This document shows, in pieces, positions 2,296-16,324 of a stretch of 56,897 bases of DNA. Every line of letters starts with the position of its first letter. Positions within the stretch are counted from its first letter, which is position 1. Where the stretch lies: contig CALXKD010000006.1 in NCBI GenBank assembly GCA_944388795.1, positions 1 to 56,897 on the forward strand, given 5' to 3'. This DNA comes from an uncultured Clostridia bacterium (GTDB taxonomy: Bacteria; Bacillota; Clostridia; TANB77; CAG-508). Both the position numbers and the translations under genes were made by a program. Below the pieces are notes generated by a model that saw only the letters and a program-made list of their open reading frames with translations, was not told where the DNA came from and searched no databases.

Positions 2296-2310
2296 AGAAA
2301 GGAAACAAGA

Positions 2311-4494
2311 ATGGATAAAATTATTAATACAATTGCAGAAGAATTAAATATTAGACCAAAACAAGTAGAAGCTACGATAAAATTAATTGATGAGGGAAAT
2401 ACCATTCCCTTTATTGCACGTTATAGAAAAGAAGTAACAGGAGGATTAAGTGACGAAATCCTTAGGGATTTAGGAGAAAGATTAAATTACTTAAGAAATT
2501 TAGAACAAAGAAAAGAAGAAGTCGTAAAATCAATTGATGAACAAGGAAAATTAACAGATGAAATCTTACAAGCAATTGCTATTTGTAAGACATTAGCAGA
2601 GGTAGAAGATATTTATAGACCATATAAACAAAAGAAAAAAACAAGAGCAACAGTTGCAAAGGCAAAAGGTCTAGAGCCATTGGCAAATATCATTATAGAG
2701 CAAAAAGAAACAACACCAATTTTAGAAATTGCAAAAGAATATGTGAATATCGAAACTTTATCAGAAGAGGATAAAAAGAATAAGGATAAAGTGGTTGCAA
2801 CTCCAGAAGATGCTGTACAAGGAGCTTTAGATATTATTGCAGAAGATATTTCAGATAATAGTAAATATAGAAAACAAATCAAAAGAATATGTTATAGAGA
2901 AGCAACCATTCAAACAAAGGCAGCAAAGCCAGAAGAAAAATCAAATTATGAAATGTATTATGAATATCAAGAAGCAATAAAATATATACCAAGTCATAGA
3001 ATCTTGGCAATCAATCGTGGAGAAAAAGAAGATTTTCTAAAAGTAAAGATTGAAAAACCAGAAGATAAGATATTAGCATATATAGAAAAAGATATGATAA
3101 AGGGTGAAACACAATTTACCCAAATGCTAAAAGATACGATTTTAGATAGTTTTAGAAGATTAATTGAACCATCAATTGATAGAGAAATTCGATCAGATTT
3201 AACAGAAAAGGCAGAAGATAAAGCGATTAAAGTATTTGGTAAAAACTCAAAACAACTGCTTTTAGGAGCACCAATCAAAGGAAAAACAGTTATGGGATTT
3301 GACCCAGCTTATAGAACAGGATGTAAAATTGCCGTTATTGATGAAACAGGAAAATTATTAGATTATACAACGGTTTATCCAACAGAGCCTCAAAATGATG
3401 TAGAAGGGGCTAAAAAAGAATTATTAAAATTAATTGACAAAGATAAAGTAGATATGATAGCCATTGGAAATGGAACAGCATCAAGAGAATCAGAAATGTT
3501 TGTAGCAGATATGATAAAAGAAGCTTCAAGGGATGTTCATTATGTCATTGTTAGTGAAGCAGGAGCATCTGTATATTCTGCATCAAAATTAGCTACAGAA
3601 GAATATCCAGATATCAATGTATCTATTAGAGGTGCCATTTCTATTGCCAGACGTTTGCAAGATCCATTAGCAGAATTGGTTAAAATAGATCCAAAGGCTA
3701 TTGGTGTTGGACAATATCAACATGATGTTAATCAAAAGAAATTACAAGAAAGCTTAACAGGTGTGGTAGAAGATAGTGTTAATAAAGTAGGTGTTGATGT
3801 AAACACAGCGACACCATCATTACTTTCATATGTTTCAGGAATTAATAACACCATTGCGAAAAATATTGTAAAATATAGAGATGAAAATGGAAAATTAAAA
3901 AATAGAAAAGAATTATTAAAGGTTCCTAAGCTTGGAAAAGTAGCATTTGAACAATGTGCAGGATTCTTAAGAATCTTAGATGGAGATAATCCATTAGAAG
4001 TTACAGCTGTTCACCCAGAAAGTTATGCAGCAACAGAAAAATTATTAAATCAATTAGGATTTGATAAACAAGATTTAAAGGATAAAGAAAAGCTAGAAGA
4101 ATTAAGAACAAAATTAAAAACAGTTAATGTAGCAGAAATGGCAAAAGAACTAAATATAGGGGAGATGACATTAACAGATATTATTGAAGAATTATCAAAG
4201 CCAGGAAGAGATCCGCGTGAAGATATGCCAAAACCAATTTTAAGAAGTGATGTATTAAAATTAGATGACTTGAGAGAAGGGATGGTGTTAACAGGAACTG
4301 TTAGAAATGTCATTGACTTTGGAGCATTCGTGGATATTGGTGTAAAACATGATGGGCTTGTACATATTTCAGAAATGAGTGATAAATTTATAAAAAATCC
4401 ATCTGATGTGGTTTCTGTAGGAGATATTGTAAAAGTAAAAGTCATTAAAATTGATAAAGAAAGACAAAAAGTAGGACTTTCTATGAAGGTTTAA
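2311..4494 (+). CDS. tex: Tex family RNA-binding transcription accessory protein
   Basis: TIPFIARYRKE, DPAYRTGCK, IGVGQYQHDV and a C-terminal S1 domain (FGAFVDIG). Confidence 0.95.
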   Translation: MDKIINTIAEELNIRPKQVEATIKLIDEGNTIPFIARYRKEVTGGLSDEILRDLGERLNYLRNLEQRKEEVVKSIDEQGKLTDEILQAIAICKTLAEVEDIYRPYKQKKKTRATVAKAKGLEPLANIIIEQKETTPILEIAKEYVNIETLSEEDKKNKDKVVATPEDAVQGALDIIAEDISDNSKYRKQIKRICYREATIQTKAAKPEEKSNYEMYYEYQEAIKYIPSHRILAINRGEKEDFLKVKIEKPEDKILAYIEKDMIKGETQFTQMLKDTILDSFRRLIEPSIDREIRSDLTEKAEDKAIKVFGKNSKQLLLGAPIKGKTVMGFDPAYRTGCKIAVIDETGKLLDYTTVYPTEPQNDVEGAKKELLKLIDKDKVDMIAIGNGTASRESEMFVADMIKEASRDVHYVIVSEAGASVYSASKLATEEYPDINVSIRGAISIARRLQDPLAELVKIDPKAIGVGQYQHDVNQKKLQESLTGVVEDSVNKVGVDVNTATPSLLSYVSGINNTIAKNIVKYRDENGKLKNRKELLKVPKLGKVAFEQCAGFLRILDGDNPLEVTAVHPESYAATEKLLNQLGFDKQDLKDKEKLEELRTKLKTVNVAEMAKELNIGEMTLTDIIEELSKPGRDPREDMPKPILRSDVLKLDDLREGMVLTGTVRNVIDFGAFVDIGVKHDGLVHISEMSDKFIKNPSDVVSVGDIVKVKVIKIDKERQKVGLSMKV

Positions 4495-4503
4495 GAAAAT
4501 GTT

Positions 4504-4531
4504 AAAAGTTGCCAATTGCTTGGCAACTTTT
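4504..4531. terminator. Bidirectional rho-independent terminator
   Basis: aaaagttgccaa-ttgc-ttggcaactttt between convergent genes. Confidence 0.85.
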
Positions 4532-4532
4532 T

Positions 4533-5597
4533 CTATCCTTTATATTTTTCTTGGATTTCTTGAATTTCATCAAAATGATTTTTTAATATATCTAAAAATA
4601 AATCATCTAATTCAGGATCAAATTGTGTTCCTTTACATCTTTCAAATTCTGAAATAATTTTATCTAAGCTTAAAGAATCACGGTAAGCTCTTCTAGAAGC
4701 CATAGCATCAAAACTGTCAGCGATTGCGGTTATTCTAGCTAAATAAGGAATGTTATTTCCAGCAAGTTTTCCAGGATATCCAGTTCCATCATATTTTTCA
4801 TGATGATGTTCTACAATTGGTAAAATATCGTTAAATATAGCAGCATTTGATAATATATGGACACCAATATTAGGATGTTGTTTTATTTGAGAATATTCTT
4901 CATCTGTAAGCTTAGAATCTTTCAATAATACACTATCTGGAACTCCTATTTTACCAATATCGTGGAATAATCCACCAATTTCCAAAGTGTGTAGTTCTTC
5001 ATTTGATAAACCTAATTTTTTTCCTATTAAAACAGAATAAGCAGCAACTCTATCAGAATGACCTCTTGTATACATATCTTTTGCTTCAATTGTGTATCGT
5101 AATGTTTTAATAGAATCTAAATAAGCTTGTTCTAATTTTTCATAAGTATCAGATAATTTGTTATTTATTTCTTTGATTTCATTCATTTGTTTGATAGATT
5201 TTATTCCTGATTCAATTAATAAAAGTAATTGATCAAATTTATCTCCTTTTTCACAATAACCTTGGATATCTAATCTTCGAATGGTTTCTAGTGGAGGAGC
5301 TAAATCTTTATGACCTGTAAGTAATAAAATGTATAAATCTTTATTAAATTTTCTAATTTCTTCAACTACTTGATCTCCATGAAAAGGTGTCATGATAAAG
5401 TCTAATACCATTAAATCAAAATGTTCTTCTTTAACTAATCTGATAGCTTCTTGAGGATCAGTAACACCTGTAAAGTCATATCCAGAACGTTTTAAAAATA
5501 TGGATAAAGAATCAACAATACCTTCTTCGTCATCTACAGCAATAATTCTATAAGTATTATTTTCTATATTTTCTGCACCTTGTAAATGCTTTCTCAT
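4533..5597 (-). CDS. Response regulator with REC + HD-GYP phosphodiesterase domain (RpfG-like)
   Basis: REC: VDDEE, VLDFIM, LLTG, CEK. HD-GYP: YTRGHSDRV, HDIGKIG, HHEKYDGTGYP, ADSFDAM, GTQFDP. Confidence 0.92.
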   Translation of the reverse strand: MRKHLQGAENIENNTYRIIAVDDEEGIVDSLSIFLKRSGYDFTGVTDPQEAIRLVKEEHFDLMVLDFIMTPFHGDQVVEEIRKFNKDLYILLLTGHKDLAPPLETIRRLDIQGYCEKGDKFDQLLLLIESGIKSIKQMNEIKEINNKLSDTYEKLEQAYLDSIKTLRYTIEAKDMYTRGHSDRVAAYSVLIGKKLGLSNEELHTLEIGGLFHDIGKIGVPDSVLLKDSKLTDEEYSQIKQHPNIGVHILSNAAIFNDILPIVEHHHEKYDGTGYPGKLAGNNIPYLARITAIADSFDAMASRRAYRDSLSLDKIISEFERCKGTQFDPELDDLFLDILKNHFDEIQEIQEKYKG

Positions 5598-5800
5598 AAT
5601 TTCCTCCTATATTAACCTAATTTTCAACTATTATATAATAAAAAAAATAAAAATCAAGTTTTTTTACACGATTTTTAGTGTAATTGCTTGATTTTTATTT
5701 TTAACGTAACATAAAAAAGTATAGGAAATTTTAAATAAATCTAACTAAGAATACACCAGGATAAAGTATGCATCCTTTACTTAAAATTATGTAAAGTCCT

Positions 5801-7795
5801 TTATAATGGTAGAATAATTGTAAATGTTGTGCCTTTTCCTTCTTCTGATTCAAATGTAATATCACCATTAAAATGAGCTTTTATGGTAGAGTAAGACATA
5901 TACAAACCTAAACCAGTACCATTTTTTCCTTTTGTTGTAATCATTTCTTTAAATAATTTATCTTTTACCTTTTTCGACATTCCACTAGCATAATCTTTAA
6001 CATGAATAAGAACATTATGATCTTTGGTTTCTAAAATTAATTCAATATTTTTGTTTTTCTCCCCGTTATATGCTTGAATAGAATTAGAAATCATATTATT
6101 AATAACTTGTACTAAGCTATTAATATCACCATTTATACTAGTATGTTCATCTGTTCTCATAGAAATATTTAGATAAATAAGTGCATTTTTTAACTCATGC
6201 TTCATTAAAATATTAACTCTTTTTACTAATTCATCAAGTGTAAAGTGGACAGAATCTGCTTCAGATAAAGTTACAGCTTGTCCCTTAACAGCAGTTATAA
6301 TATCTGACATATATTCAGTATAATCTTTAATTTTTGAAATCCATTCTGACATATCTTTTGCAATATCATGGTGGTCTTGAGAGGTAACATCAGGATCATC
6401 AATAGATTCATTATATTCCTTAATTAGGCCATTTAAACCTTCTAATGCTCCAGATATTGACATGATAGGCGTTTTTAAGTTATGAGCAATTCCTCCAATT
6501 AATTGACCAAGTGAGGCTAAACGTTCACTTTCCATCAGGGTTTCTTGACTATTATGTAATTGGTCTACGTAAGTTTTCGTTAATTTCTGAATTTCATTAA
6601 AGGAAGCAGTCAAATCTCCAATTTCGTCATTTGATGTTATAGGAAGATTATTAGCATAAATAACATTTTGTGAATTAGAAATATTTCTCATTCCTTCAAT
6701 AACACTGTCAATATCATTGCTTAAGTCTTTACCAATATAAAGGATAAATAAGCAGTTAATAATAATTAAAAGACCAGCAATTAATATAAATGGAAGGATA
6801 AAAGAATTAGCAAATACAAAGTATCGAATTCCAACATAACATTCTCCCATATTTGTATTTATTTTTATTAATGCACCTTCTATATTTTGACCATAATATT
6901 CATAAGTATAACCTTCTGTTTCATCATAAAAATTTAGTGTATAGTTTATAAAGAAATCATTTAGCTTTTTTGGAGAATAATAAATTTCACCAGTAGAAGC
7001 AGACATGATTAATGCATGATCTCCTTCAGATTTAAATTCTATAGAGTTTAAAATGTTTTCTACATCTGAAATATCATATACTGTAGTTTCATTAAAATGA
7101 GATAATAATTCTTGTCTATAGAAATGATATAGTAATTCTCCTTTTTCTTTTGTCATTAAAGACATAGAAATTAGTAAGATTAAGACAAAAGAATATAAGA
7201 ATAAAGGTAATATTTGTATTAATAATTTATTGTATAAAGGTAAACGAATACCTGTAACTTCATTTTTTGCCAATTCCGCTGTAGCAATTAATCTATTTGA
7301 AAAGAATTTCTTGCTAAGCATATAAGAAAAAATAGCAAAAACAGCAGAGAAAGAAAATACAACAGTGGTGATTCTTAAAACTAATTCTGCTTCTGTATTA
7401 AATGCAAATAATAAAATGGCAATGATAATAGAAGGTACAAATAATTCTAATAAAAGCATTAGATAAGGATAATTGAAGGATTTTTTTCTTAATTTTTTAA
7501 TATATTCTTTAGGCGGATTTTTTAGTTTATCATCAGATAAAGATAATTTACTATATATGACTCTCAAAGCAATATATAATAAAATCAATAAAATAGAGAT
7601 AATGATGATAAACTGAGTGGTATATTTTATACCAACAATTTCTATCTGAAAATTATTATCAATAGAATTTGGTGGATAATTTAAAACAAAAGGCAGTACA
7701 AAATATAAAACTGCTGCAATCATAGCAAATATTAAAGTGTTAACAAATGCTAATTTTTTTTCATTATCAATATTAAAAATTTTAATAGATTTCAT
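5801..7795 (-). CDS. Membrane sensor histidine kinase (multi-TM, HAMP, HisKA, HATPase)
   Basis: About 6 hydrophobic segments, HAMP SNDEIGDLTASFN, H-box GIAHNLKTP, N-box NMISNSIQA, G2 GTGLGL. Confidence 0.9.
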   Translation of the reverse strand: MKSIKIFNIDNEKKLAFVNTLIFAMIAAVLYFVLPFVLNYPPNSIDNNFQIEIVGIKYTTQFIIIISILLILLYIALRVIYSKLSLSDDKLKNPPKEYIKKLRKKSFNYPYLMLLLELFVPSIIIAILLFAFNTEAELVLRITTVVFSFSAVFAIFSYMLSKKFFSNRLIATAELAKNEVTGIRLPLYNKLLIQILPLFLYSFVLILLISMSLMTKEKGELLYHFYRQELLSHFNETTVYDISDVENILNSIEFKSEGDHALIMSASTGEIYYSPKKLNDFFINYTLNFYDETEGYTYEYYGQNIEGALIKINTNMGECYVGIRYFVFANSFILPFILIAGLLIIINCLFILYIGKDLSNDIDSVIEGMRNISNSQNVIYANNLPITSNDEIGDLTASFNEIQKLTKTYVDQLHNSQETLMESERLASLGQLIGGIAHNLKTPIMSISGALEGLNGLIKEYNESIDDPDVTSQDHHDIAKDMSEWISKIKDYTEYMSDIITAVKGQAVTLSEADSVHFTLDELVKRVNILMKHELKNALIYLNISMRTDEHTSINGDINSLVQVINNMISNSIQAYNGEKNKNIELILETKDHNVLIHVKDYASGMSKKVKDKLFKEMITTKGKNGTGLGLYMSYSTIKAHFNGDITFESEEGKGTTFTIILPL

Positions 7796-7808
7796 CTTAG
7801 GTTTCCTC

Positions 7809-10800
7809 CTAACTATGTTTTTCTTTTAGGTAAGCTATAATTTTATGAATATATTCTGTTGTTATATTTGGCCAATCCAGGTTTAAGGTATTTAAGACAG
7901 CTAAGGTTTTTTCATTATGAAAGGTAATAACATTTTTGCTGTTTATATTTCGTATATAGGCAGTAATACCAAAATAATTAGATTTTGCATTAGACAAAGC
8001 ATGTTTAAACTCATTTATTGATGCTGCTTTTATAGAAACACCACAATCTGTCAGCATAGTTAATAATTGATCACCTGAAACATAATGATTATTGTATAAA
8101 TGATATATTTCTAAATTATGTTGTTGCTGTTGCATTAATTGAACAATAAAGTTTGCACAAATATCTACAGGTGAAAATTCAAAATTAAACTGAAAAAGTT
8201 CCTTTGGAAAAATCCCTAAATTAATAAAGGCATCTAATCTATTCAAAAAGGCATTATCAGCAAAATTTTCTTGAAAACCACCATCATCATAGCGATTAGT
8301 AATTGTACCCAATCTATAAATACTAGCTATAATATCTTCGTTTTTACAGGCCTCAATAATTGCTTTTTCTGCTTCAAATTTACTTCTTACATATACATTT
8401 TCACGGAAAGATTGCCCTATATATAAATCATCTTCTGTAAAATTAGCAGAAGGTGTTTTGACAAGTCCATGTCCAGATACAGACATTGTGGAAATGTAAT
8501 GTAAAGGAATATGAAATTCCTTACAAAAAGCAATGATTTTTTGTGTAGAGGTTACATTTGTTTTATTAAATAGTTCATAATTTCCATAATGTTTTACTAA
8601 AGCAGCTGTATCAATCACGCAATTACACTTATTTCCCAAGTGATTGTATAATTCGGTATCTAATCCAAATTGGTCATCTAATATATTACCTTCTATAACT
8701 TTAATTCTATATAAATATGGCTCTATATCCAATTTAGGAAAATAGAATTTAAACTTTTTAATTAACCTTGATAAAGGATTTATAGAATCTTTTTTTCTTA
8801 TAATACAAAATACTTTACTATGTGTTGTGGTTAATAAATAGTATAAGATATGCATTCCTAAGAAACCAGTGGCTCCAAAAAGAACAATGCTCTTGATATG
8901 AAAAGAAATATCAATTGTTTTTTTGATTTCCTTTATAATAGGCATTTTTTCAAGAAAAGCAGAGGTTTCATTTGGTTGATCCACTAAAAGAAAATCAGCA
9001 AGCTTTCGGATGGTTGGATATTCATAAAAGTTTTGTGTATTTGTTGAAATTCCTTTATTATATAATAAAGATTGTACCTTTATTAGGAAAAGAGAATCCA
9101 CATAATAATCAAAGAAATTATCTTCTACACTAATAGGAGATTTTAGCTCTAATAAGTTAGTAAATAATTCTTGTAATGTTTCCTCTAAAGTATTTTGTGG
9201 TTTAACATATTTTGTACGACTCCTTTTTGGTAAAGGAAGTGCTGATTTATCTATTTTTCCATTAATTGTCAAAGGTAGCTTGTCTAATCTAATAAAATAG
9301 TTGGGTATCATGTAACTAGGTAGATCCTTTTTCAAAAAGTCAGATAAATTTTCGATTTCCTCATCTGCTACATAATAAGCACAAAGTAATTTATGTTTAT
9401 TAATTTCAATTAAGGAAGCATATACATCTTTAATAGATGGATGTGTTAATAAAATAGATTGAATTTCTCCTAATTCAATTCTATAGCCATTTAATTTAAC
9501 TTGAAAGTCGCTACGCCCTAAATATTCCATGACGCCATTAGGATGTAATATAGCAAGATCACCAGTTTTATATAGTTTAGATTCTGGATAAAAAGGATTA
9601 TCCAAAAATCTTTCTGTAGTTTTTTTATTATCTGTATAGCCTAAAGCTAAACCATCACCACTAATATACATTTCTCCAATACTACCTAAAGGAACCAATT
9701 CTAAGTCATTATTTAAAATTAGAATTTGTGTATGGTCAATAGGATAACCAATTGGAACAGAGGTATATGTATCATTTGCATTATATTCATAAATCATACA
9801 ACCAACAGTTGCTTCAGTTGGTCCATATTCATTATAAATATGGATAGGATGAGAAAATAGAGAAGTGATTTTTTCACACATTTCTTTTGTTAAAATATCT
9901 CCACCCAAAATAAATTTACATACAATGCTATTACTTAAATCAAGATCTTGTAATAAAGTAAAATGTCCAGGTGTTAGTTTTATAATTTGAACTTTATTAT
10001 CTGTAATAATATCTTTTAAAAGTAATTCCGCATTATCATTTTGATATATATATATTGTATTTCCTGAGCATAAAGGTGTATAAATAGAAGTTACAGTTAA
10101 GTCAAATGCAACAGAAGAAAATAATGGGAAATTTGTTTCTTCTCCATGCACATATTGTTTAATTGCCCAACGAATATAATTGCTTAAACTTTTATGACAA
10201 ATTTTAACACCTTTTGGTTTTCCTGTTGATCCAGAGGTATATATAATATATGCTAAATCTTCTTCTTTTAAATCATAATCAAAATTCTCTATAGAATCAT
10301 TTAAAGAAGGATAAGTATTTAAATCAATCCTTAAAACCATATTTTTATCTAAATGAATAGAAGATAATGCCTTTGGATGTGTTAATACACATTTTGCCTT
10401 ACTATTATTGACAATATATTCAATTCTCTCATCAGGGTAATTTATATCAATTGGGATATAGCAAACTCCCAATTTTTGTGTAGCCAAAATACTAGCAACA
10501 AATTCAATAGAATCTGAAAATGCTAAACAAACAATATCACCAGCTTGTATAGAATGCTTTTTTAAGGTTAAGGCAATTAAATTAGCTAAATTATTTAAAG
10601 ATTTATATGTAAGAGCTGTATTCTTATACGAAATGGCTAACTTATTTGGTGTATTCTTTACTTGTTTTTTAAACAAATCATAAACAGAAACAAATGAATT
10701 TGTAGAAGCAGTTTTTTTGTTATATGTTTCTAAAATATAAGATTTTTCTTTAGAAGAAACAATTTCGAGCTCCTTAATTTTTAATGTCGGATTAGATATG

Positions 10801-12044
10801 ATTTGTTTAATCATTTCCATTAAACGTTCATGTAAAAGAGATATATCCTCCATTGTAAATAAATCTTTTTTAAAGTCGTAATATATATTAATCATTCCTG
10901 TATCATCTATATCATATAGATGAATATCCAAATTATTGACAACACAATGATTAAATAACCATCTGCAAGAATAAGGAATACTAGAATCTGTTCTATGATT
11001 TCTTGCATTTTGATAAGATAGACAAACATCATAAAGATTTTTAGATATATTAAATTTTTTTCTAATGGTATCTAGTAAAAGTCTATATGGATATCTTTGA
11101 TTTCTAAAAACAGAAAGTTCGTGTTTAGAAACTTGATTAATAAAGTCTATACAAGTCAAATCTTTATCAATTTCCATACGAAAAGGTATGGTACTAATAT
11201 ACATACCAGTTGTTGTTTTTTCTTTAAAATTAGATCTATTTAATATAGGGGTTCCTACAATAGAGGAACTCGTATTATTGATTTTTGACAAATATATATT
11301 AAGGACAGCCATAAAAAGTGAAAATAAAGAAGTTTTATGGTTGTTACAAAAATTTACTAATGTATCTGTTTCAGCTTTTGAAAGTGTAACACTTTTTCGA
11401 ATAGCTTCATAAGAACTAGATTGGAAGTCCTTTAAATATGAGAATTCCAGATTATCAAATTGATGCTCCCAAAATTCTTTGGCACGTTCAAACTTTGGAC
11501 TTTCTATATATTTTTGTTCATCATGTATAAAATTAATATAAGAGTTATTCTTAATATTTTCTATAAGTGAATTTTGTATTAAAGAAGCATAATAAGACAT
11601 GATTTGGTCAATTAATAAGCTCATGGTCCAAGCATCAGAAATAATATGATGTAAATTGGCCATAAAACCACCGGTACCATCTGAATTTATAAAAATTACA
11701 AAACGATATAAGTCATTGTTAAAAAGTGTAAAAGGTTTTGAAATAACATCTTCTTCCAGTTTTGATAAAGGATATTGTTTGGTGATTGATATTTTTTCAA
11801 TATCAACAAAAGAATAGTTCTTAATAAATTGTTTTATTTCAGAGCCATCTTCAAATAGGTTAATCCTTACGGAATCATTATGTTGTATAAATAAATTGAT
11901 TGCTTTTTCCAAAGCATCAACATTGATTTTTTCAGTAATAGATAATGTTCCACATATATTTGATACAGAAGTATTTTTATTAAATTGCTCTGTTAATAAA
12001 ATTGATTTTTGTGGATTTGTTAATTCATAACTTAAAATACTCAT
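7809..12044 (-). CDS. Single-module NRPS, C-A-T-R (terminal thioester reductase)
   Basis: C: HHIISDAW. A: YTSGSTGKPKG, FDLTV, NEYGPTE, YKTGDL, QVKLNGYRIELGEI, LPSYMIP, NGKIDK. T: NFFDYYVDSL. R: GATGFLG, YISTMSV, YVRSK. Confidence 0.93.
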   Translation of the reverse strand: MSILSYELTNPQKSILLTEQFNKNTSVSNICGTLSITEKINVDALEKAINLFIQHNDSVRINLFEDGSEIKQFIKNYSFVDIEKISITKQYPLSKLEEDVISKPFTLFNNDLYRFVIFINSDGTGGFMANLHHIISDAWTMSLLIDQIMSYYASLIQNSLIENIKNNSYINFIHDEQKYIESPKFERAKEFWEHQFDNLEFSYLKDFQSSSYEAIRKSVTLSKAETDTLVNFCNNHKTSLFSLFMAVLNIYLSKINNTSSSIVGTPILNRSNFKEKTTTGMYISTIPFRMEIDKDLTCIDFINQVSKHELSVFRNQRYPYRLLLDTIRKKFNISKNLYDVCLSYQNARNHRTDSSIPYSCRWLFNHCVVNNLDIHLYDIDDTGMINIYYDFKKDLFTMEDISLLHERLMEMIKQIISNPTLKIKELEIVSSKEKSYILETYNKKTASTNSFVSVYDLFKKQVKNTPNKLAISYKNTALTYKSLNNLANLIALTLKKHSIQAGDIVCLAFSDSIEFVASILATQKLGVCYIPIDINYPDERIEYIVNNSKAKCVLTHPKALSSIHLDKNMVLRIDLNTYPSLNDSIENFDYDLKEEDLAYIIYTSGSTGKPKGVKICHKSLSNYIRWAIKQYVHGEETNFPLFSSVAFDLTVTSIYTPLCSGNTIYIYQNDNAELLLKDIITDNKVQIIKLTPGHFTLLQDLDLSNSIVCKFILGGDILTKEMCEKITSLFSHPIHIYNEYGPTEATVGCMIYEYNANDTYTSVPIGYPIDHTQILILNNDLELVPLGSIGEMYISGDGLALGYTDNKKTTERFLDNPFYPESKLYKTGDLAILHPNGVMEYLGRSDFQVKLNGYRIELGEIQSILLTHPSIKDVYASLIEINKHKLLCAYYVADEEIENLSDFLKKDLPSYMIPNYFIRLDKLPLTINGKIDKSALPLPKRSRTKYVKPQNTLEETLQELFTNLLELKSPISVEDNFFDYYVDSLFLIKVQSLLYNKGISTNTQNFYEYPTIRKLADFLLVDQPNETSAFLEKMPIIKEIKKTIDISFHIKSIVLFGATGFLGMHILYYLLTTTHSKVFCIIRKKDSINPLSRLIKKFKFYFPKLDIEPYLYRIKVIEGNILDDQFGLDTELYNHLGNKCNCVIDTAALVKHYGNYELFNKTNVTSTQKIIAFCKEFHIPLHYISTMSVSGHGLVKTPSANFTEDDLYIGQSFRENVYVRSKFEAEKAIIEACKNEDIIASIYRLGTITNRYDDGGFQENFADNAFLNRLDAFINLGIFPKELFQFNFEFSPVDICANFIVQLMQQQQHNLEIYHLYNNHYVSGDQLLTMLTDCGVSIKAASINEFKHALSNAKSNYFGITAYIRNINSKNVITFHNEKTLAVLNTLNLDWPNITTEYIHKIIAYLKEKHS

Positions 12045-12231
12045 AAAACATCACCTTAAAAAATTTTTGCTATGATGATTATACATATAAAAAATCAAAA
12101 AATCAAATTATTATACTAAATAACTCATAAATCTTCATTTTATTTGTTTTTTTATATGTATATTTAATGAAAGTTTGAGTTGAAAAATAAAAAAAATAGA
12201 GATAGAATGAAGAAAAGATGGGAGGGATTGT

Positions 12232-13959
12232 ATGGGTGATAATGAAAATAGAAAGGTTTATGAACCAAGAATTGTAAAGAATTATAGGGAAATGATAGAA
12301 TATTCTGTTAAAAATTATGCAGATAAAATTGCCTATAAATATAAGAAAAATGGAGATTTAAAACATGTAGAATATGTAGAAAAGACATATGAACAAGTTG
12401 GAAGAGATATAAAAGCTTTTGCAACAGAATTATTAAATAAAGGTTTAGAACATAGAAAGATTGTGCTTATTGGAAATAACCGATATGAATGGTGTATTAG
12501 TTATTTAGCAGTAACAAGTGCAAATATGATTATTGTTCCATTAGATAAAGCGCTCCCAGATAATGAAATCGAGAATTTGGTAACTAGAAGTGAAGCAGAT
12601 GTTGCTATATTTGATAAAAAATATATAGATGTTATGAAAAAGCTAAAAAAAGATACAAATGTGAATTTAAAAATGTTAATTTGTATGGACAATATAAAAG
12701 ATAATGAGGTCGAAAAATTTTCACAGTTATTACAAAAAGGTGAAGAATTATTAAAAAACGGAGATAATCGCTATGAAAAAGTAGAGGTCAACCCTGATAA
12801 AATGTCTATTATGTTATTTACATCAGGAACAACAAATTTACCAAAGGCTGTTATGCTATCTCAAAAAAATATATGTGCCAATTTATCAGACTTTGCATCT
12901 TGGGTAAAATTGTATCCAACAGATACTTTACTGTCTTTTCTACCAATTCATCATACTTTTGAATGCACAGTTACTTTTCTTTATGGCTTTTATAGTGGCT
13001 GTACAGTTGCCTTTTGTGATGGATTAAAATATATTCAAAAAAATCTTGCGGAATACAAGGTTTCTGTATTTGTGGCTGTTCCATTAGTACTAGAAACTAT
13101 GTATAAAAAGATTCAAAAAGCCATTCAAGACCAAGGAAAAGAAAAATTAATTCATATGATGATAAAATTATCCAATGGACTTTTAAAATGTAAAATAGAT
13201 TTAAGAAAAGTAATCTTTAAACAAATATTGGACAATTTAGGTGGAAATATTCGTTTAGTTTTATATGGATCAGCACCTATGAGCAAGGAAACAATTGTAG
13301 GATTTAACAATTTTGGAATTGCCTTGGTACAAGGATATGGTTTAACAGAAACATCACCAGTTATTGCAGCAGAGTCTGATAAAGAAAAAAGACCAGGTTC
13401 TGTGGGACTAGCACTTCCAAGCTTGAATGTAAAGATAGATAATCCAGATGAAAATGGTGAAGGAGAAATTTTAGTGAAGGGTCCAAGTGTTATGATGGGA
13501 TATTATCATAATGAGGAGGAAAATAAAAAAGCTTTTATCGATGGTTGGTTTAGAACAGGAGATTATGGATATATGACAGAGGATGGTTTTATCTATGTTA
13601 CAGGAAGAAAGAAAGATATTATTGTTTTAAGAAATGGAAAGAATGTATATCCACAAGAAATAGAATTTTTAATTAATAAACTTCCATATGTTACAGAGTC
13701 TTTAGTATATCAGAGGGAAAAAGACAAAACAGATACCATGTTATGTGCAAAGATTGTATATGATAAAGATATCATAAAAGAAAGTTTTGGAGAAAAAACA
13801 GAAAAAGAATATAAAGATAATATTTGGGAAGAAATAAAAGAGATTAACAAACAATTACCTGTATTTAAACACATAAAAAAGATAACAATTACAACAGAAC
13901 CATTAATAAAAACCACTACACAAAAAGTAAAGCGATATGAAGAATTGAAAAAAGTTTAG
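12232..13959 (+). CDS. Long-chain fatty acid-CoA ligase (AMP-binding, FadD-like)
   Basis: FTSGTTNLPKAV, QGYGLTETSP, FRTGDYG, GRKKDIIVLRNGKNVYPQEIE, TTTQKVKR. Confidence 0.88.
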   Translation: MGDNENRKVYEPRIVKNYREMIEYSVKNYADKIAYKYKKNGDLKHVEYVEKTYEQVGRDIKAFATELLNKGLEHRKIVLIGNNRYEWCISYLAVTSANMIIVPLDKALPDNEIENLVTRSEADVAIFDKKYIDVMKKLKKDTNVNLKMLICMDNIKDNEVEKFSQLLQKGEELLKNGDNRYEKVEVNPDKMSIMLFTSGTTNLPKAVMLSQKNICANLSDFASWVKLYPTDTLLSFLPIHHTFECTVTFLYGFYSGCTVAFCDGLKYIQKNLAEYKVSVFVAVPLVLETMYKKIQKAIQDQGKEKLIHMMIKLSNGLLKCKIDLRKVIFKQILDNLGGNIRLVLYGSAPMSKETIVGFNNFGIALVQGYGLTETSPVIAAESDKEKRPGSVGLALPSLNVKIDNPDENGEGEILVKGPSVMMGYYHNEEENKKAFIDGWFRTGDYGYMTEDGFIYVTGRKKDIIVLRNGKNVYPQEIEFLINKLPYVTESLVYQREKDKTDTMLCAKIVYDKDIIKESFGEKTEKEYKDNIWEEIKEINKQLPVFKHIKKITITTEPLIKTTTQKVKRYEELKKV

Positions 13960-14097
13960 TTATCAAAGGTATGGAAATATTGATAACAAGTAATATATTT
14001 TTAATTTAAAGGAAAACTTAATAAAGTTTATTAGGTTTTCTTTTTTCTTATGACTAAAATTTGTAATATCGTAAATACTACTTTTGAGGTGATTTTA

Positions 14098-15234
14098 TTG
14101 CGAAGAACCAAAAAAAGAAAAAGTAGTGGAAAAAAAATTATGATGATTACAATTATCTTATTAATTGTATGGTTATTGGGTTTCTATTTATATGTTACAT
14201 ATAATAATATCGAAATATATGATTCAAATTATACAGCACAAAAGACACAATCCACAATAGAGGAACAAACTGTGGAAAAGGTAGAGGAAAAAAGCAAAAC
14301 AGTGGCAGATGTGATAGAGGAAACTATAGAAGGAGTTGTTGGAATTTCAAAATTAAAAAATACAGGAACTTCTATATTTTCAGAAAATACAGAAAGTCAA
14401 TTAGGATTAGGAACAGGTGTTATTGTAACTGACAATGGATACATTTTGAGTAATGAACATGTAACAGGAAGTAAATATAGTAAATGTTATGTAACACTAG
14501 AAAATGGAAATAATTATGACGGAACTGTTGTATGGAGTGATTCTAACATAGATTTATCGATTGTAAAAATAGAAGCCAGTAATTTAAAATATATTACATT
14601 AGGAGATTCGGATAATATAAAAATAGGGGAAACCGTTTATGCAATTGGAAATCCTATTGGATTTGAATTTAGAAGAACCGTTACTTCGGGAATTATTAGT
14701 GCAAAAAATAGAACTATAAAACTAGAAGAGGAAGAAAATACAGCATATATGACAGATTTAATACAAACAGATGCGACAATTAATCCAGGAAATAGTGGAG
14801 GACCACTAATTTATCCGAATGGAGAAGTCATTGGTATTAATACAGTTAAGATTTCATCAGCAGAAGGGATAGGGTTTGCAATACCAATTAATATTGTAAA
14901 ACCGATTATAGAAAGTTATAAAAATACAGGAGATTTTCAAGAAGCAAAAATTGGGATATATGCTTATGATACAGAAGTGATTCCATATTTAGAAACTGGA
15001 GTAAAAACTAGTTTCCAAGAGGGAATTTATGTGACGGAAGTAACAAAAAATGGTCCAGCAGAAGCAGCAGGAATAAAAGAAGGAGATATTATTACACAGA
15101 TAGATGATACAAAGTTAAATACAATGAATGATTTAAGAGAATATGTATATACAAAAAAGCCAAATGAAGAGGTTACGTTAAAGATTAATAGAGGGAAAAT
15201 TAAAAAAGATGTTATCATAAAATTAGGAAAGTAA
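14098..15234 (+). CDS. htrA: HtrA/DegP-like serine protease with PDZ domain and N-terminal anchor
   Basis: SNEHV, DLSIVKI, TDATINPGNSGGPL, PDZ GPAEAAGIKEGDII. TTG start after gaggtg assumed. Confidence 0.88.
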   Translation: MRRTKKRKSSGKKIMMITIILLIVWLLGFYLYVTYNNIEIYDSNYTAQKTQSTIEEQTVEKVEEKSKTVADVIEETIEGVVGISKLKNTGTSIFSENTESQLGLGTGVIVTDNGYILSNEHVTGSKYSKCYVTLENGNNYDGTVVWSDSNIDLSIVKIEASNLKYITLGDSDNIKIGETVYAIGNPIGFEFRRTVTSGIISAKNRTIKLEEEENTAYMTDLIQTDATINPGNSGGPLIYPNGEVIGINTVKISSAEGIGFAIPINIVKPIIESYKNTGDFQEAKIGIYAYDTEVIPYLETGVKTSFQEGIYVTEVTKNGPAEAAGIKEGDIITQIDDTKLNTMNDLREYVYTKKPNEEVTLKINRGKIKKDVIIKLGK

Positions 15235-15240
15235 AGATTA

Positions 15241-15265
15241 TCCAGTTGGAAAAATCCCAACTGGA
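15241..15265. terminator. Hairpin terminator between convergent genes
   Basis: tccagttgg-aaaaatc-ccaactgga. Confidence 0.6.
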
Positions 15266-15271
15266 CAATGT

Positions 15272-16324
15272 CTATTCTGTTAGAAATGGTTCCATAAAAT
15301 CATATTTTCTAGAATAATCCATAGTATTTTCATTTGAAAGATATACTTCTGAAGTATTACTCTTTAAAAATTCAATAATTTCATACACATCTATCCAAAT
15401 TTCATTTGGACTATCAACTTGTGATTCATCAAAAATAAGTTGCATACCAAAATGTAAATGGGCAACATTAATATTATTCACGTTTTCTTTTATACTATAT
15501 CCTGTCATACCTAAATATCCAATAACATCACCAGCTTTTACAGTATCGCCTTTTTCTAATCCCTCTATATATGGATGGTCTTTTCGTAGATGGGCATAAT
15601 AATAATATCGTTTTCCATCAAAGCTTCTAATGCCAATACGCCAACCTCCGTATTGATTCCATCCGAGTTGTTCAACAATACCAGATTCAACAGCTATAAT
15701 GGGAGTACCAATACTTCCCATTAAATCATTTCCTAAATGGGTTCTTTTAAATCCATAAGACCTAGAATTGCCAAAATCCTTGTAATGTGTAAAATAATAA
15801 TTTTTAGCAATTGGTAAAAATGCTTTTAAACCATATTGGTTTTGAAATACTTTAGAATTATTAGAATCTAATACCTCGATAGAATAATTGCCGATAAATC
15901 CACTGAGAACGGCGGAATAAGCTTCTAAATAATAGTCGTAAAATGTTAAATTAGATGTTAGTTCTTCTATTGTTTTTCCACTTTTTAAATTTTCTATGAT
16001 TTTATCTAAATCACTTGATTTAAAGTTATTAAAATTTCCGCCATATATACATGCTAAATAAGCCAATAATTCTATCCAATTATATTGAATTTCTTCATTA
16101 TTATTATGAGAATCAATATCTAATGTAGCTGTTAATTTTAAAACAGTACTTGGAATGGTGAAATCTACCCACTTGATAAAATCGTTTTCTTTTTCAGAGG
16201 TTGCTGTTGCAGAAGTGAATACTTTCTCAGAATAATATAATACCAAAAAAGAGCTTAAAAAAATAATTAATGTGAGAAGTGAAATAAATATAATAGAATT
16301 TAGCTTTATAGATTTTATAACCAA
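15272..16324 (-). CDS. M23 family metallopeptidase with N-terminal anchor
   Basis: HLGNDL, YYYAHL, HLHFG motifs. Confidence 0.88.
   Translation of the reverse strand: MVIKSIKLNSIIFISLLTLIIFLSSFLVLYYSEKVFTSATATSEKENDFIKWVDFTIPSTVLKLTATLDIDSHNNNEEIQYNWIELLAYLACIYGGNFNNFKSSDLDKIIENLKSGKTIEELTSNLTFYDYYLEAYSAVLSGFIGNYSIEVLDSNNSKVFQNQYGLKAFLPIAKNYYFTHYKDFGNSRSYGFKRTHLGNDLMGSIGTPIIAVESGIVEQLGWNQYGGWRIGIRSFDGKRYYYYAHLRKDHPYIEGLEKGDTVKAGDVIGYLGMTGYSIKENVNNINVAHLHFGMQLIFDESQVDSPNEIWIDVYEIIEFLKSNTSEVYLSNENTMDYSRKYDFMEPFLTE

What the first reader, a model, noticed from the sequence alone, without database searches (positions are those of the whole stretch)
4533..13959. Rpf-like signalling cluster with an NRPS as the candidate signal synthase (acyl-CoA ligase / C-A-T-R NRPS / sensor kinase / HD-GYP regulator)
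Seen: the NRPS stop lies 13 bp before the histidine kinase start, a REC-HD-GYP regulator follows on the same strand, and a long-chain acyl-CoA ligase is divergent across a 187-bp gap. No exporter, immunity gene or DNA-binding regulator is present. Known: Xanthomonas DSF signalling uses RpfB (acyl-CoA ligase), RpfF (signal synthase), RpfC (multi-TM kinase) and RpfG (REC-HD-GYP c-di-GMP phosphodiesterase); N-terminal starter C domains condense acyl-CoA onto the first amino acid; R domains release aldehydes or alcohols. Inference: the NRPS makes a diffusible N-acyl amino aldehyde/alcohol, the co-transcribed kinase senses it, and the output is cyclic-dinucleotide hydrolysis. That would be a lipo-amino-acid quorum-sensing system in a Gram-positive anaerobe, which I do not recognise as described.
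Basis: partly seen in the sequence, partly recalled or inferred. Interest (0 to 1): 0.9.

Follow-up and report, generated by a model that had tools for sequence, protein, structure and literature searches.

The report
Lipo-amino-acid signalling cassette in gut Clostridia
A small peptide-making enzyme, a membrane sensor kinase and a cyclic-di-GMP-degrading regulator form one gene cassette kept across many uncultured gut Clostridia, and the enzyme and the sensor's ligand-facing half change together, as expected of a signal and its receptor.

Summary
The window holds REC-HD-GYP (4533-5597), a multi-TM histidine kinase (5801-7795), a C-A-T-R NRPS (7809-12044) and a divergent FadD-like ligase (12232-13959), with gaps of 13, 203 and 187 bp.

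The NRPS-kinase-regulator triad is a conserved unit:
- In 61 related genomes, all 54 with the kinase also have the NRPS.
- Of 80 loci retrieved through the kinase alone, 77 have the NRPS adjacent; the other 3 end at contig edges.
- Within the genus, the NRPS (median 33% identity) and the kinase sensor half (25%) are hypervariable. The kinase catalytic half (72%), the regulator (77%) and flanking Tex (84%) are conserved, with a sharp boundary just before the H-box.
- A-domain codes differ between species, and bimodular NRPSs mostly pair with a different 7TM-PAS sensor.
- The cassette also occurs in other Clostridia families with C-A-T-TE. In one genome the NRPS position holds a PilZ-tandem-GNAT acyltransferase.

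The ligase is facultative. Sensing of the product, its chemistry and the phosphodiesterase activity are inferred, not shown. My searches found no description in print.

The parts
4504..4531 (.). Bidirectional terminator-like hairpin between Tex and the regulator gene. It marks the downstream end of the cassette.
   Evidence: 12-bp stem with 4 G-C pairs, reported on both strands. This is a consensus match only.
4533..5597 (-). Response regulator, REC plus HD-GYP (354 aa). It is the predicted cyclic-dinucleotide phosphodiesterase output.
   Evidence: Response_reg 4e-16, HD_5 7.1e-37. HD and HHE..DGTGYP motifs are intact; best solved relatives are PmGH 4mcw (9.6e-40) and V-cGAP3 5z7c (8.3e-38); 68-94% identical within the genus and 58-65% in two other families.
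5630..5657 (-). -35/-10-like site (TTGATT-16-TATAAT) upstream of the regulator gene. It is a possible separate promoter.
   Evidence: 10 of 12 matches. The scan as a whole is not above shuffles (61 found against 76.8 expected), so this is weak.
5801..6565 (-). Kinase transmitter half (residues about 411-664): DHp/H-box and HATPase_c. This is the conserved part.
   Evidence: HisKA and HATPase_c; median 72% identity in the genus; 95% mean identity over residues 421-450.
6566..7795 (-). Kinase sensor half (residues 1-410): five TM helices, a small extracytoplasmic alpha/beta domain (about 240-326), TM6 and HAMP. This is the hypervariable part.
   Evidence: AlphaFold2 model, pLDDT 85.9, pTM 0.79; 20-44% identity per 30-residue bin; no solved match at E<=0.001, only weak CpxA, KinD and dCache sensor-domain rows.
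7805..7811 (-). NRPS stop codon TAG overlapping the GGAGG ribosome-binding site of the kinase.
   Evidence: read directly from the sequence. It implies co-transcription and probable translational coupling.
7809..12044 (-). Single-module NRPS, C-A-T-R (1411 aa), the candidate signal synthase. Approximate domain spans: C 10734-12029, A 9255-10673, T 8988-9179, R 7818-8888.
   Evidence: Pfam domains; best NCBIfam match is AusA module 2, 691 bits, below the equivalog cut-off. A-domain 10-residue code DLTKIGEVGK; the N-terminal C domain falls in the clade of N-terminal C domains, separate from internal C domains.
12045..12231 (.). Divergent intergenic region. It holds -35/-10-like sites for the NRPS (12106..12078, -) and the ligase (12180..12208, +).
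   Evidence: These are consensus matches only. No Rfam family was found in it.
12232..13959 (+). FadD-like long-chain acyl-CoA ligase (575 aa). It is a facultative accessory and the possible acyl donor supplier.
   Evidence: AMP-binding, long-chain-fatty-acid-CoA ligase models; a distinct clade at 54-93% identity lies next to the NRPS or at a contig break in 11 genus members, while paralogues elsewhere are 40-51%.

Best explanation
This is a self-contained small-molecule signalling cassette.

Proposed mechanism, with each step marked:
- The C-A-T-R NRPS loads one amino acid. The A-domain code reads DLTKIGEVGK, which I recall as an asparagine code.
- Its N-terminal C domain N-acylates that amino acid with a fatty acyl thioester (inferred). 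The acyl group comes from cellular acyl-CoA, here possibly from the divergent FadD-like ligase.
- The R domain releases the product reductively as an N-acyl amino aldehyde or alcohol (inferred from domain order).
- The lipophilic product leaves the cell without a dedicated exporter (inferred).
- It is bound by the hypervariable 5TM-plus-extracytoplasmic-domain sensor of the kinase that is translated from the same mRNA (inferred from co-variation and strict linkage).
- Ligand binding changes phosphotransfer to the REC-HD-GYP regulator (adjacent cognate pair, inferred).
- The regulator's phosphodiesterase activity alters the c-di-GMP pool (domain-level inference).

Different species carry different synthase and sensor cassettes on the same conserved transmitter and regulator. 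This gives species-specific signal-receptor pairs, as in the ComQXP, Agr and Vfm specificity groups.
For: Linkage
- Among 61 genomes of five families of the order, 55 have an NRPS-grade match and 54 have the kinase. All 54 kinase genomes have the NRPS, and 6 have neither.
- Of 41 loci (40 chosen from the NRPS hits, plus the window), 37 have NRPS and kinase adjacent and co-directional. Gaps are -47 to 80 bp in 34 of the 35 loci with NRPS-then-kinase order.
- Retrieval through the kinase alone from 185,579 species genomes gave at least 593 relatives. Of the best 80, 77 have an NRPS domain adjacent and 3 end at a contig edge.
- In a class-wide draw of 200 genomes, 19 besides the window's own have a kinase match. 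In 11 of them NRPS C and A domains lie directly upstream of the kinase and a REC/HD-GYP regulator lies downstream.

Mosaic conservation
- Median pairwise identities within the genus, 16 species:

| Protein or part | Median identity |
|---|---|
| Tex | 84% |
| Regulator | 77% |
| Kinase catalytic half | 72% |
| HtrA | 59% |
| NRPS | 33% |
| Kinase sensor half | 25% |

- Identity along the kinase jumps from 20-44% (residues 1-390) to 95% (residues 421-450).
- Species with Tex 87-91% identical to the window's carry different cassettes.

Co-variation
- Mantel r for sensor half against NRPS is 0.55 (p=0.001). The partial value controlling for the catalytic half is 0.54. Catalytic half against NRPS is 0.15 (p=0.106).
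- There are 11 distinct A-domain codes among the 25 single-module NRPSs paired with the 5TM sensor type, and more when the 7TM-paired and bimodular synthetases are counted.

Sensor architecture tracks synthase class
- 71 loci pair the 5TM sensor with one A domain. 27 pair a HisKA_7TM-PAS sensor with a bimodular C-A-T-C-A-T-R.
- The C-domain tree puts single-module and bimodular enzymes as close sisters in at least four places, each with the matching sensor switch.

Synthase replaced by unrelated enzymes at the same position
- C-A-T-TE occurs in one genome checked by Pfam.
- A carrier-domain protein with a Rossmann-like C-terminal domain occurs in one genus.
- In G100, a 543-aa protein sits 2 bp upstream of the kinase start. 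Its model (pLDDT 89.5) is YcgR-N/PilZ over residues 1-211 (Z about 15 to MotI, PP4397 and MrkH). Residues 211-533 are a tandem GNAT whose best match is a histidine N-acyltransferase solved with N-myristoyl-histidine (Z 13.5-14.9). RxxxR (R107, R111) and G139 are invariant in 17 homologues.

Coupled expression and intact motifs
- The NRPS stop overlaps the kinase Shine-Dalgarno.
- HD-GYP motifs are intact.
- Short contigs with 0-3 mismatches lie on the NRPS, regulator and ligase in two chicken-gut RNA-library runs of one study. DNA carry-over is not excluded.
Against: - Nothing here shows binding, secretion or density dependence.
- NRPS and the sensor-coding DNA are contiguous. Block recombination, with a breakpoint at the very conserved H-box, could produce the co-variation without any functional coupling.
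- NRPSs with the same A-domain code in different families do not have clearly more similar sensors (28% against 26%).
- The rule linking sensor type to module number has exceptions. In family f3, 5 loci pair a single-module NRPS with a 7TM kinase. G024 pairs a single-module NRPS with a 7TM kinase. L109 pairs a bimodular NRPS with the 5TM type.
- Some NRPSs lack the kinase: G029, a second NRPS in G026, and the only NRPS found in G017.
- The downstream pathway is unclear. G000 (74.5% complete) has no canonical GG[DE]EF cyclase, only a conserved REC-GGDEF protein reading GGDDF. No PilZ protein and no c-di-GMP riboswitch were found.
- Only an AcpS-type PPTase was found in G000.
- The C domain's nearest solved relatives by sequence are elongation C domains (TycC 9e-25, against the SrfA-A starter C at 1.2e-16).
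- The kinase-to-regulator gap of 203 bp allows separate regulation.
Confidence: 0.55

Rival explanations
1. The NRPS product is mainly an outward-acting bioactive, such as a peptide or acyl-amino aldehyde protease inhibitor like those reported for gut Clostridia NRPSs. The kinase and regulator then form a producer-side circuit that senses the product for feedback or self-adaptation, as NisK/NisR does for nisin. It would not be a dedicated cell-cell signal.
For: - The architecture ends in a reductase, and the best NCBIfam match is AusA, the aureusimine synthetase.
- Gut NRPSs were reported to give dipeptide aldehydes (Guo 2017 and Schneider & Balskus 2018). I saw this only as a passage and reference list in PMC12327764. 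The details are recalled.
- An HtrA-like serine protease gene flanks the NRPS in families f1 and f5.
- Some NRPSs persist without the kinase and regulator (G029, G026).
Against: - The single-module C-A-T-R and C-A-T-TE forms cannot make dipeptides.
- The cassette has no exporter or immunity gene.
- The kinase was never found without a synthase among assessable close orthologues.
- A GNAT acyltransferase can replace the NRPS.
- This rival still needs the kinase to sense the product, so it differs from the best explanation only in the molecule's main target.
Confidence: 0.2
2. The kinase senses an unrelated cue (a host or dietary lipid, bile, envelope state). It is merely co-transcribed with the NRPS so that both respond to the same promoter. 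The co-variation comes from physical linkage, because whole NRPS-plus-sensor blocks are exchanged by recombination.
For: - The variable region is one contiguous DNA block ending at a 95%-conserved stretch that could serve as a recombination anchor.
- The same A-domain code does not predict sensor similarity across families.
- The rule linking sensor type to module number has exceptions.
Against: - The adjacency survives changes of gene order (kinase before NRPS in G044 and G058).
- It survives changes of the release domain (R, TE, Rossmann-like) and of enzyme class (PilZ-GNAT), across many Clostridia families at GC 26-53%. That is hard to explain without a functional tie.
- Sensor architecture switches together with synthase class in at least four sister pairs.
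- Kinase and regulator are lost together, and were not found without a synthase, in the 61-genome sample.
Confidence: 0.15
3. The circuit is cell-autonomous. The kinase monitors the membrane-embedded lipid product or its precursor to tune synthesis or membrane composition through c-di-GMP, with no intercellular role.
For: - The correlation with the A domain is strongest for the 5-TM bundle (r=0.51), which suggests an intramembrane ligand site.
- No exporter is present.
- A PilZ domain fused to the acyltransferase in G100 implies c-di-GMP feedback onto synthesis.
Against: - Diversification of synthase and sensor pairs between close species is typical of discrimination between cells, not of housekeeping homeostasis.
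- The type-A sensor has a folded extracytoplasmic domain.
Confidence: 0.1

Closest known systems
Rpf/DSF signalling of Xanthomonas (RpfF, RpfC, RpfG, RpfB); description from established knowledge, recalled
   Same: A lipid-like signal is made by an enzyme encoded beside a multi-TM sensor kinase. The partner regulator is REC-HD-GYP and lowers c-di-GMP. A FadD-type ligase lies next door.
   Different: The synthase here is an NRPS (or a GNAT), not a crotonase-family RpfF. The kinase is not a hybrid, having no REC or HPt domain. The ligase is facultative. The carriers are Gram-positive anaerobes. The synthase and sensor are hypervariable.
Vfm quorum sensing of Dickeya (PMC9306890; abstract and outline read)
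   Same: An unidentified signal is made by NRPS-type adenylation enzymes. Polymorphism in A-domain specificity defines signal specificity groups. The signal is perceived through a two-component system.
   Different: Vfm is a 26-gene cluster in Gammaproteobacteria. Its regulator VfmH is described as a Fis-family response regulator in the abstract start of PMC10714721 (search listing). Its linked polymorphism lies in an ABC permease (VfmG), not in the kinase sensor. The cassette here has 3 or 4 genes, an HD-GYP output, and the polymorphism sits inside the kinase.
ComQXP of Bacillus and Agr of staphylococci (pherotype systems; recalled)
   Same: The mosaic pattern is the same. The signal-making genes and the sensor half of the kinase are hypervariable, while the kinase transmitter half and the regulator are conserved at one chromosomal locus.
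   Different: Those signals are ribosomal peptides, and their regulators bind DNA. Here the signal would be non-ribosomal and the output a cyclic-dinucleotide phosphodiesterase. Variation was seen here between species. Within-species variation was not tested.
Gut Clostridia NRPS family giving peptide aldehydes or pyrazinones (Guo et al. 2017 Cell; ruminopeptin, Schneider & Balskus 2018) and AusA of S. aureus
   Same: Small NRPSs ending in a thioester reductase, in gut Firmicutes. The best NCBIfam match of this NRPS is AusA module 2.
   Different: Neither paper is held in the library. I saw only a passage and the reference list in PMC12327764, so whether they noted the kinase is unknown to me. 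This NRPS has a single module with an N-terminal C domain, so no dipeptide is possible. The score is far below the AusA equivalog cut-off (691 against 2500 bits).
Pvf (PvfC) autoinducer system of Pseudomonas (PMC10194917; passages read)
   Same: A small NRPS makes extracellular autoinducers that control many genes.
   Different: According to that paper, the Pvf receptor and transduction pathway are still unknown. Here the candidate receptor is encoded immediately downstream.

Membership tests
Rpf/DSF system | RpfF-type enoyl-CoA hydratase/crotonase signal synthase | tested here: not met
   no crotonase-family domain in any gene from 89 to 16324. The only biosynthetic enzymes are the NRPS and the ligase.
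Rpf/DSF system | RpfC-type hybrid kinase (HisKA-HATPase-REC-HPt) | tested here: not met
   the kinase ends at HATPase_c (residue 664) and has no REC or HPt domain.
Rpf/DSF system | RpfG-type REC-HD-GYP regulator | tested here: met
   REC plus HD_5, with HD and HHE..DGTGYP motifs. The best solved relatives are HD-GYP phosphodiesterases.
Rpf/DSF system | RpfB-type fatty acyl-CoA ligase linked to the cluster | tested here: inconclusive
   It is present in the window. It is adjacent in only 9 of 41 NRPS-selected loci and 20 of 80 kinase-selected loci. In the 7TM-type loci of the second set, the 8-kb flank ends inside the NRPS, so the ligase cannot be assessed there.
Reductase-terminated NRPS (AusA / gut peptide-aldehyde family) | Terminal thioester reductase after the last T domain | tested here: met
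   NAD_binding_4 at residues 1057-1300. TIGR01746 thioester reductase, 188.6 bits (cut-off 213). GATGFLG and YxxxK can be read.
Reductase-terminated NRPS (AusA / gut peptide-aldehyde family) | AusA equivalog (two modules, A-T-C-A-T-R) | tested here: not met
   691.8 bits against a 2500-bit cut-off. The match covers only AusA positions 994-2371. This protein has one module with an N-terminal C domain.
Reductase-terminated NRPS (AusA / gut peptide-aldehyde family) | Aldehyde, alcohol or pyrazinone product | not testable with these tools
   This needs expression and mass spectrometry.
Starter (lipo-initiation) condensation domain | C domain at the N-terminus of the first module, distinct from elongation C domains | tested here: inconclusive
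   The position is N-terminal. In the C-domain tree, all 40 N-terminal C domains separate from the 8 internal C domains with 100% SH-aLRT (quick tree). By sequence, however, the nearest solved C domain is an elongation one (TycC 9e-25, against the SrfA-A starter C at 1.2e-16). No reference subtype models were available.
Two-component phosphorelay pair | H-box kinase plus receiver with acidic pocket, encoded together | tested here: met
   domains. H-box region 95% conserved. In one search the DD, the D of LMVLDF, T and K can be read by eye. The two genes are adjacent in families f1, f4 and f5 and in the class-level loci. Phosphotransfer itself was not tested.
HD-GYP c-di-GMP phosphodiesterase | Catalytic HD..HHE..GYP motifs and activity on c-di-GMP | tested here: inconclusive
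   The motifs are intact. The second-best solved relative is cGAMP-specific (5z7c). No canonical GG[DE]EF cyclase, PilZ protein or riboswitch was found in the 74.5%-complete genome. The substrate is therefore not assigned.
Pherotype-type quorum sensing (ComQXP / Agr / Vfm logic) | Hypervariable synthase and receptor sensor on a conserved transducer | tested here: met
Pherotype-type quorum sensing (ComQXP / Agr / Vfm logic) | Within-species polymorphism, cross-specificity and density-dependent autoinduction | not tested
   Only one genome per species was available, and there were no cultures.

The most novel reading that the evidence does not exclude
Across gut Clostridia, small NRPSs (C-A-T-R, C-A-T-C-A-T-R, C-A-T-TE) and, in places, GNAT acyltransferases are autoinducer synthases for N-acyl amino acid-derived signals. 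Each is read by a dedicated, co-diversifying sensor kinase that is wired to c-di-GMP through a conserved REC-HD-GYP regulator. If so, the gut 'peptide aldehyde' NRPS family is first of all a species-specific bacterial communication system, with host protease inhibition secondary. It would also be the first non-ribosomal pherotype system in Gram-positive anaerobes.
Probability: 0.4. Interest if true: 0.9.

Novelty: new variant of a known kind. Interest (0 to 1): 0.8.

Why it matters
These organisms are uncultured, small-genome gut Clostridia. Record titles such as Clostridium sp. CAG:508, CAG:571 and CAG:273, from human, chicken, rabbit, sheep and mouse samples, identify them. How they communicate is unknown.

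- The cassette gives a candidate signal, receptor and output in three adjacent genes, so each step can be tested in vitro without culturing the organism.
- It offers a biological role other than host protease inhibition for a family of gut NRPSs.
- It links non-ribosomal lipo-amino-acid chemistry to c-di-GMP signalling in Firmicutes.
- The many natural synthase and sensor pairs form a ready-made set for studying how receptor specificity evolves.

Tried and rejected
Tried without a useful result:
- Rfam on the window found only 5 tRNAs, with no riboswitch near the cassette.
- c-di-GMP-I, c-di-GMP-II and PilZ searches of the window's genome found nothing. For c-di-GMP-I the control genomes did not ring either, so that answer is empty.
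- The promoter scan was not above shuffles.
- Foldseek of the sensor model against PDB gave no match at E<=0.001.
- Pfam found no family in the 543-aa G100 protein, even at E<=10. Only the fold searches resolved it.
- The protein search with the sensor region listed only 83-100% identical relatives among the best 120 of 320. It therefore gave no diversity and no view of within-species variation.
- The RNA-library contigs left the kinase gene (bins 5772-7941) without cover in X1 and X2. With contigs only and low depth, this says nothing about expression.

Considered and rejected:
- I tested whether sensors cluster by A-domain code across families. They do not (28% against 26%).
- I first counted G100, G218 and G245 as kinase and regulator without a synthase. 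Inspection showed a PilZ-GNAT gene in G100. G218 has a carrier-domain ORF cut by the contig end, with a homologue in G245.
- Four genomes in the class draw (G122, G084, G236, G246) have kinases only 40-52% identical in the catalytic half. They have no NRPS and no HD-GYP regulator nearby. I treat them as outside the orthologous group, which is a judgement and not a test.

Literature:
- Searches found no paper describing an NRPS-kinase-HD-GYP cassette.
- The library lacks most subscription journals, and supplements are closed.
- Guo 2017 and Schneider & Balskus 2018 could not be read. Their cluster figures or supplements might show these kinase genes.
- The GTDB names TANB77 and CAG-508 for this group, the Asn, Thr, Ser, Val, Gly and His meanings of A-domain codes, and the motif rule used to pick the ten code positions are all recalled. 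They come from no call.

Full report
**1. What is in the window**

| Gene | Coordinates | Strand | Length |
|---|---|---|---|
| REC-HD-GYP regulator | 4533-5597 | - | 354 aa |
| Histidine kinase | 5801-7795 | - | 664 aa |
| NRPS | 7809-12044 | - | 1411 aa |
| Acyl-CoA ligase | 12232-13959 | + | 575 aa |

- Pfam confirms REC plus HD-GYP in the regulator. In the kinase it finds HisKA and HATPase_c after about 420 residues with no family. The NRPS is C-A-T-R, and the ligase is FadD-like.
- NCBIfam gives AusA module 2 as the best NRPS model, far below its cut-off. The regulator matches a c-di-GMP phosphodiesterase response-regulator model, below its cut-off.
- The NRPS stop TAG overlaps the kinase GGAGG ribosome-binding site, and the gap is 13 bp.
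- The regulator follows after 203 bp, with its own ribosome-binding site and a promoter-like site.
- The ligase is divergent across 187 bp.
- Flanking genes are Tex, an HtrA-like protease and an M23 peptidase. There is no exporter, immunity gene or DNA-binding regulator.
- The window is contig C6 of a 1.67-Mb, 64-contig, 74.5%-complete genome at about 27% GC.
- Kinase-retrieved relatives carry record titles such as Clostridium sp. CAG:508, CAG:571 and CAG:273, and many 'uncultured Clostridia' MAGs from human, chicken, rabbit, sheep and mouse guts.

**2. Is the linkage conserved?**

I searched 61 genomes (the window's own, 36 of the genus, and 24 from four other families of the order) with each protein.

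- 55 have an NRPS-grade match and 54 have the kinase.
- All 54 kinase genomes have the NRPS. One (G029) has the NRPS but neither the kinase nor the orthologous regulator. Six have neither NRPS nor kinase.
- I fetched 40 loci, chosen from the NRPS hits, and clustered their ORFs. With the window, 37 of 41 have NRPS and kinase adjacent and co-directional.
- In 35 of those the order is NRPS then kinase, with gaps of -47 to 80 bp in 34. In 2 (G044, G058) the kinase comes first.
- Three further loci hold both genes but one is interrupted (G022, G002, G043). One (G029) has no kinase.

As an independent test I retrieved loci through the kinase alone from one genome of each of 185,579 species. At least 593 stretches encode a relative. 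Of the best 80, 77 have an NRPS domain adjacent, and in the other 3 the kinase abuts a contig end.

The regulator is adjacent in families f1 and f5. In f4 one RecF/SMC_N-like gene lies between. In f2 and f3 it is unlinked. Over 112 non-redundant loci, the regulator is in the fetched stretch in 87.

**3. The ligase**

- A distinct ligase clade (54-93% identical) lies next to the NRPS, or at a contig break, in 11 genus members. All genomes also carry FadD paralogues at 40-51%.
- The ligase is adjacent in 9 of 41 NRPS-selected loci and in 20 of 80 kinase-selected loci. In the second set the 7TM-type loci cannot be assessed.
- It accompanies both sensor types, so it belongs to the conserved flank. 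It is an accessory, not a core part.

**4. Mosaic conservation**

Median pairwise identities among 16 species of the genus:

| Protein or part | Median identity |
|---|---|
| Tex | 84% |
| Regulator | 77% |
| Kinase, last 250 residues | 72% |
| HtrA | 59% |
| NRPS | 33% |
| Kinase sensor half | 25% (range 9-90) |

- Along the kinase, identity among 12 species is 20-44% for residues 1-390, 54% for 391-420, 95% for 421-450 and 56-79% after that.
- Species whose Tex is 87-91% identical to the window's carry a different single-module NRPS or a bimodular one.
- This pattern is the one known from ComQXP and Agr (recalled): variable signal genes and variable receptor input on a conserved transmitter and regulator.

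**5. What varies**

- I extracted ten-residue A-domain codes with a recalled motif rule. The window reads DLTKIGEVGK, which I recall as an Asn code.
- There are 11 distinct codes among the 25 single-module NRPSs that pair with the 5TM sensor type. More appear when the 7TM-paired and bimodular synthetases are counted.
- Some genus members carry a C-A-T-C-A-T-R NRPS at the same Tex...HtrA position. Their kinase aligns with the window's only over the catalytic half (61-78%). Its input is HisKA_7TM plus PAS.
- Over all loci, 71 pair the 5TM type with one A domain and 27 pair the 7TM type with two.
- Exceptions: 5 loci of family f3 (one A domain with 7TM), G024 (one A domain with 7TM) and L109 (two A domains with 5TM). 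Ten type-A loci gave no full-length A-domain hit, because of contig ends or split alignments.
- In a quick ML tree, the 8 internal C domains form their own clade and the 40 N-terminal C domains another, each with 100% SH-aLRT. Bimodular and single-module enzymes interleave, with at least four close sister pairs, and each pair shows the matching sensor switch.
- Mantel tests on 25 type-A pairs: sensor against NRPS r=0.55 (p=0.001); partial on the catalytic half 0.54; catalytic half against NRPS 0.15 (p=0.106). The strongest single pair is the 5-TM bundle against the A domain, 0.51.
- Against the idea: the same A-domain code in different families does not bring sensors closer (28% against 26%). 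Contiguity of the variable DNA could give these correlations through linkage alone.

**6. The sensor**

- An AlphaFold2 model of residues 1-420, built on 63 sequences, is confident (pLDDT 85.9, pTM 0.79).
- It shows five TM helices, an alpha/beta domain at about 240-326, a sixth TM helix and a HAMP-like helical pair.
- Foldseek found no solved match at E<=0.001. The weak rows are periplasmic sensor domains: CpxA, KinD and dCache.

**7. Beyond the order**

In an even draw of 200 genomes of the class, 20 (including the window's own) have a kinase match at E<=1e-45. I fetched 20 regions.

- Eleven genomes have NRPS C and A domains directly upstream of the kinase and a REC/HD-GYP regulator downstream. 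Three are in f1 and eight are in seven other families, at GC 31-53%.
- In G079 the NRPS is C-A-T-TE, the kinase has HisKA_7TM and the regulator is REC-DUF3369-HD-GYP.
- In G218 the upstream ORF, cut by the contig end, has a carrier domain followed by about 400 residues with a GxGxxG-like motif and no Pfam family. G245 has its homologue, 58% identical.
- In G100 a 543-aa ORF ends 2 bp before the kinase start. It has no Pfam hit.
- The ESM Atlas pointed to PilZ-containing proteins and, weakly, to FeeM-type N-acyl amino acid synthase clusters.
- A model on 17 homologues (pLDDT 89.5) has residues 1-211 as YcgR-N plus PilZ (Foldseek E 1.7e-12; VIA Z 15.1-15.7).
- Residues 211-533 form a tandem GNAT. 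Its best match is a histidine N-acyltransferase solved with N-myristoyl-histidine (Z 13.5-14.9), followed by VipF and N-myristoyltransferases.
- R107, R111 and G139 (RxxxR and the G of D-x-[ST]-x-x-G) are invariant in the 17 homologues.
- A shared fold does not prove function. Still, an amino-acid N-acyltransferase-like enzyme carrying a c-di-GMP-binding domain, placed where the NRPS otherwise sits, fits both halves of the hypothesis.
- One genome could not be assessed (G181). Four have only distant kinases, with no NRPS or HD-GYP partner.

**8. The output**

- HD-GYP motifs are intact. The nearest solved relatives are PmGH (c-di-GMP) and V-cGAP3 (cGAMP).
- The window's genome has three GGDEF-family proteins, none with a canonical GG[DE]EF. 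One is degenerate GGDEF plus EAL, one is degenerate, and one is a REC-GGDEF reading GGDDF.
- That last protein is conserved, with the same motif, in four near-complete relatives including another family.
- No PilZ protein or c-di-GMP riboswitch was found in this incomplete genome.
- The messenger and its effectors are therefore the weakest link.
- The genome has 11 receiver proteins and about 10 kinases.

**9. Expression**

- Two chicken-gut RNA-library runs of one study hold short contigs with 0-3 mismatches on the regulator, NRPS and ligase.
- A DNA holder covers the whole stretch.
- DNA carry-over in the RNA libraries is not excluded, and contigs cannot show transcripts.

**10. Comparison and novelty**

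- Rpf shares the logic and the REC-HD-GYP output, but the cassette fails two defining features: an RpfF-type synthase and a hybrid RpfC-type kinase.
- Vfm of Dickeya shares NRPS-type signal synthesis, A-domain-defined specificity groups and two-component perception (abstract). It differs in size, taxon, output and where the linked polymorphism sits.
- Pvf shares an NRPS autoinducer synthase, but its receptor is unknown (passages).
- The NRPS itself belongs with reductase-terminated small NRPSs known from gut Firmicutes. I know those papers only from a citing review and from memory.
- Ten literature searches found no description of this cassette. The key subscription papers and all supplements were out of reach.
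- I rate it a new variant of a known kind: signal synthase plus sensor kinase plus second-messenger output, with specificity-group diversification.

**11. Verdict**

- It is not supported for the ligase as a fixed member.
- It remains unproven in its chemistry and ligand sensing.
- Confidence in the signalling reading is 0.55. Interest is 0.8.

Noticed in passing
L176:11985-13613 (G100, another Clostridia family), minus strand: A 543-aa ORF ends 2 bp upstream of the start of a 7TM kinase that is followed by a REC-DUF3369-HD-GYP regulator. It has no Pfam hit. Its model folds as YcgR-N/PilZ plus a tandem GNAT, closest to a histidine N-acyltransferase solved with N-myristoyl-histidine. Only 17 homologues were found in 5.8 billion proteins.
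   Followed up: yes
G000:C33:13168-13905 (outside the window); orthologues in L141-L144: A REC-GGDEF protein of about 315 aa reads GGDDF where GG[DE]EF is expected. The motif is conserved in four near-complete relatives, including another family. It is the only plausible cyclase in these genomes, and no kinase hit lies on its contig (C33). It could be a second target of the cassette kinase.
   Followed up: partly
L170:11330-15229 (G079): A variant cassette in which the single-module NRPS ends in a thioesterase (C-A-T-TE) instead of a reductase. It would release a free N-acyl amino acid. Its regulator carries an extra DUF3369 domain between REC and HD-GYP.
   Followed up: partly
L177:5951-7423 (G218) and L178:2-1135 (G245): The ORF upstream of the kinase has a carrier (PP-binding) domain followed by about 400 residues with a GxGxxG-like motif and no Pfam family. 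This may be a third kind of release domain. Both ORFs are cut by contig ends.
   Followed up: partly
window 14050-15234: An HtrA-like serine protease (Trypsin_2 plus PDZ) flanks the NRPS or ligase side of the cassette in 23 of 41 loci, in families f1 and f5. This may be plain synteny, but a protease next to a possible aldehyde-forming NRPS is worth a look.
   Followed up: no
L060 (G029), L153 (G026:C49), L151 (G017:C74): These related NRPSs have no kinase downstream. G029 also lacks the orthologous regulator genome-wide. In G017 the kinase contig ends at the kinase start, so the true neighbour is unknown.
   Followed up: partly
L041:10545-17760 (G055): Two type-A kinases lie in one locus: NRPS, kinase, a 587-aa ORF with no Pfam family, then a second convergent kinase with the regulator divergent from it.
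   Followed up: no
G000:C5:60660-60950; L042:13820-14407: Only an AcpS-type 129-aa PPTase was found in the window's 74.5%-complete genome. An Sfp-type PPTase lies next to the NRPS in two family f5 loci (G048, G044).
   Followed up: partly
L030 (G022), L040 (G002), L050 (G043), L039 (G031): Copies of the cassette have in-frame stops or split ORFs in the NRPS or the kinase. These are either decaying cassettes or assembly errors.
   Followed up: no
window 25855-27574: A second, ordinary two-component pair lies in the window: a receiver protein of 239 aa and a kinase of 368 aa. It appears unrelated to the cassette.
   Followed up: no
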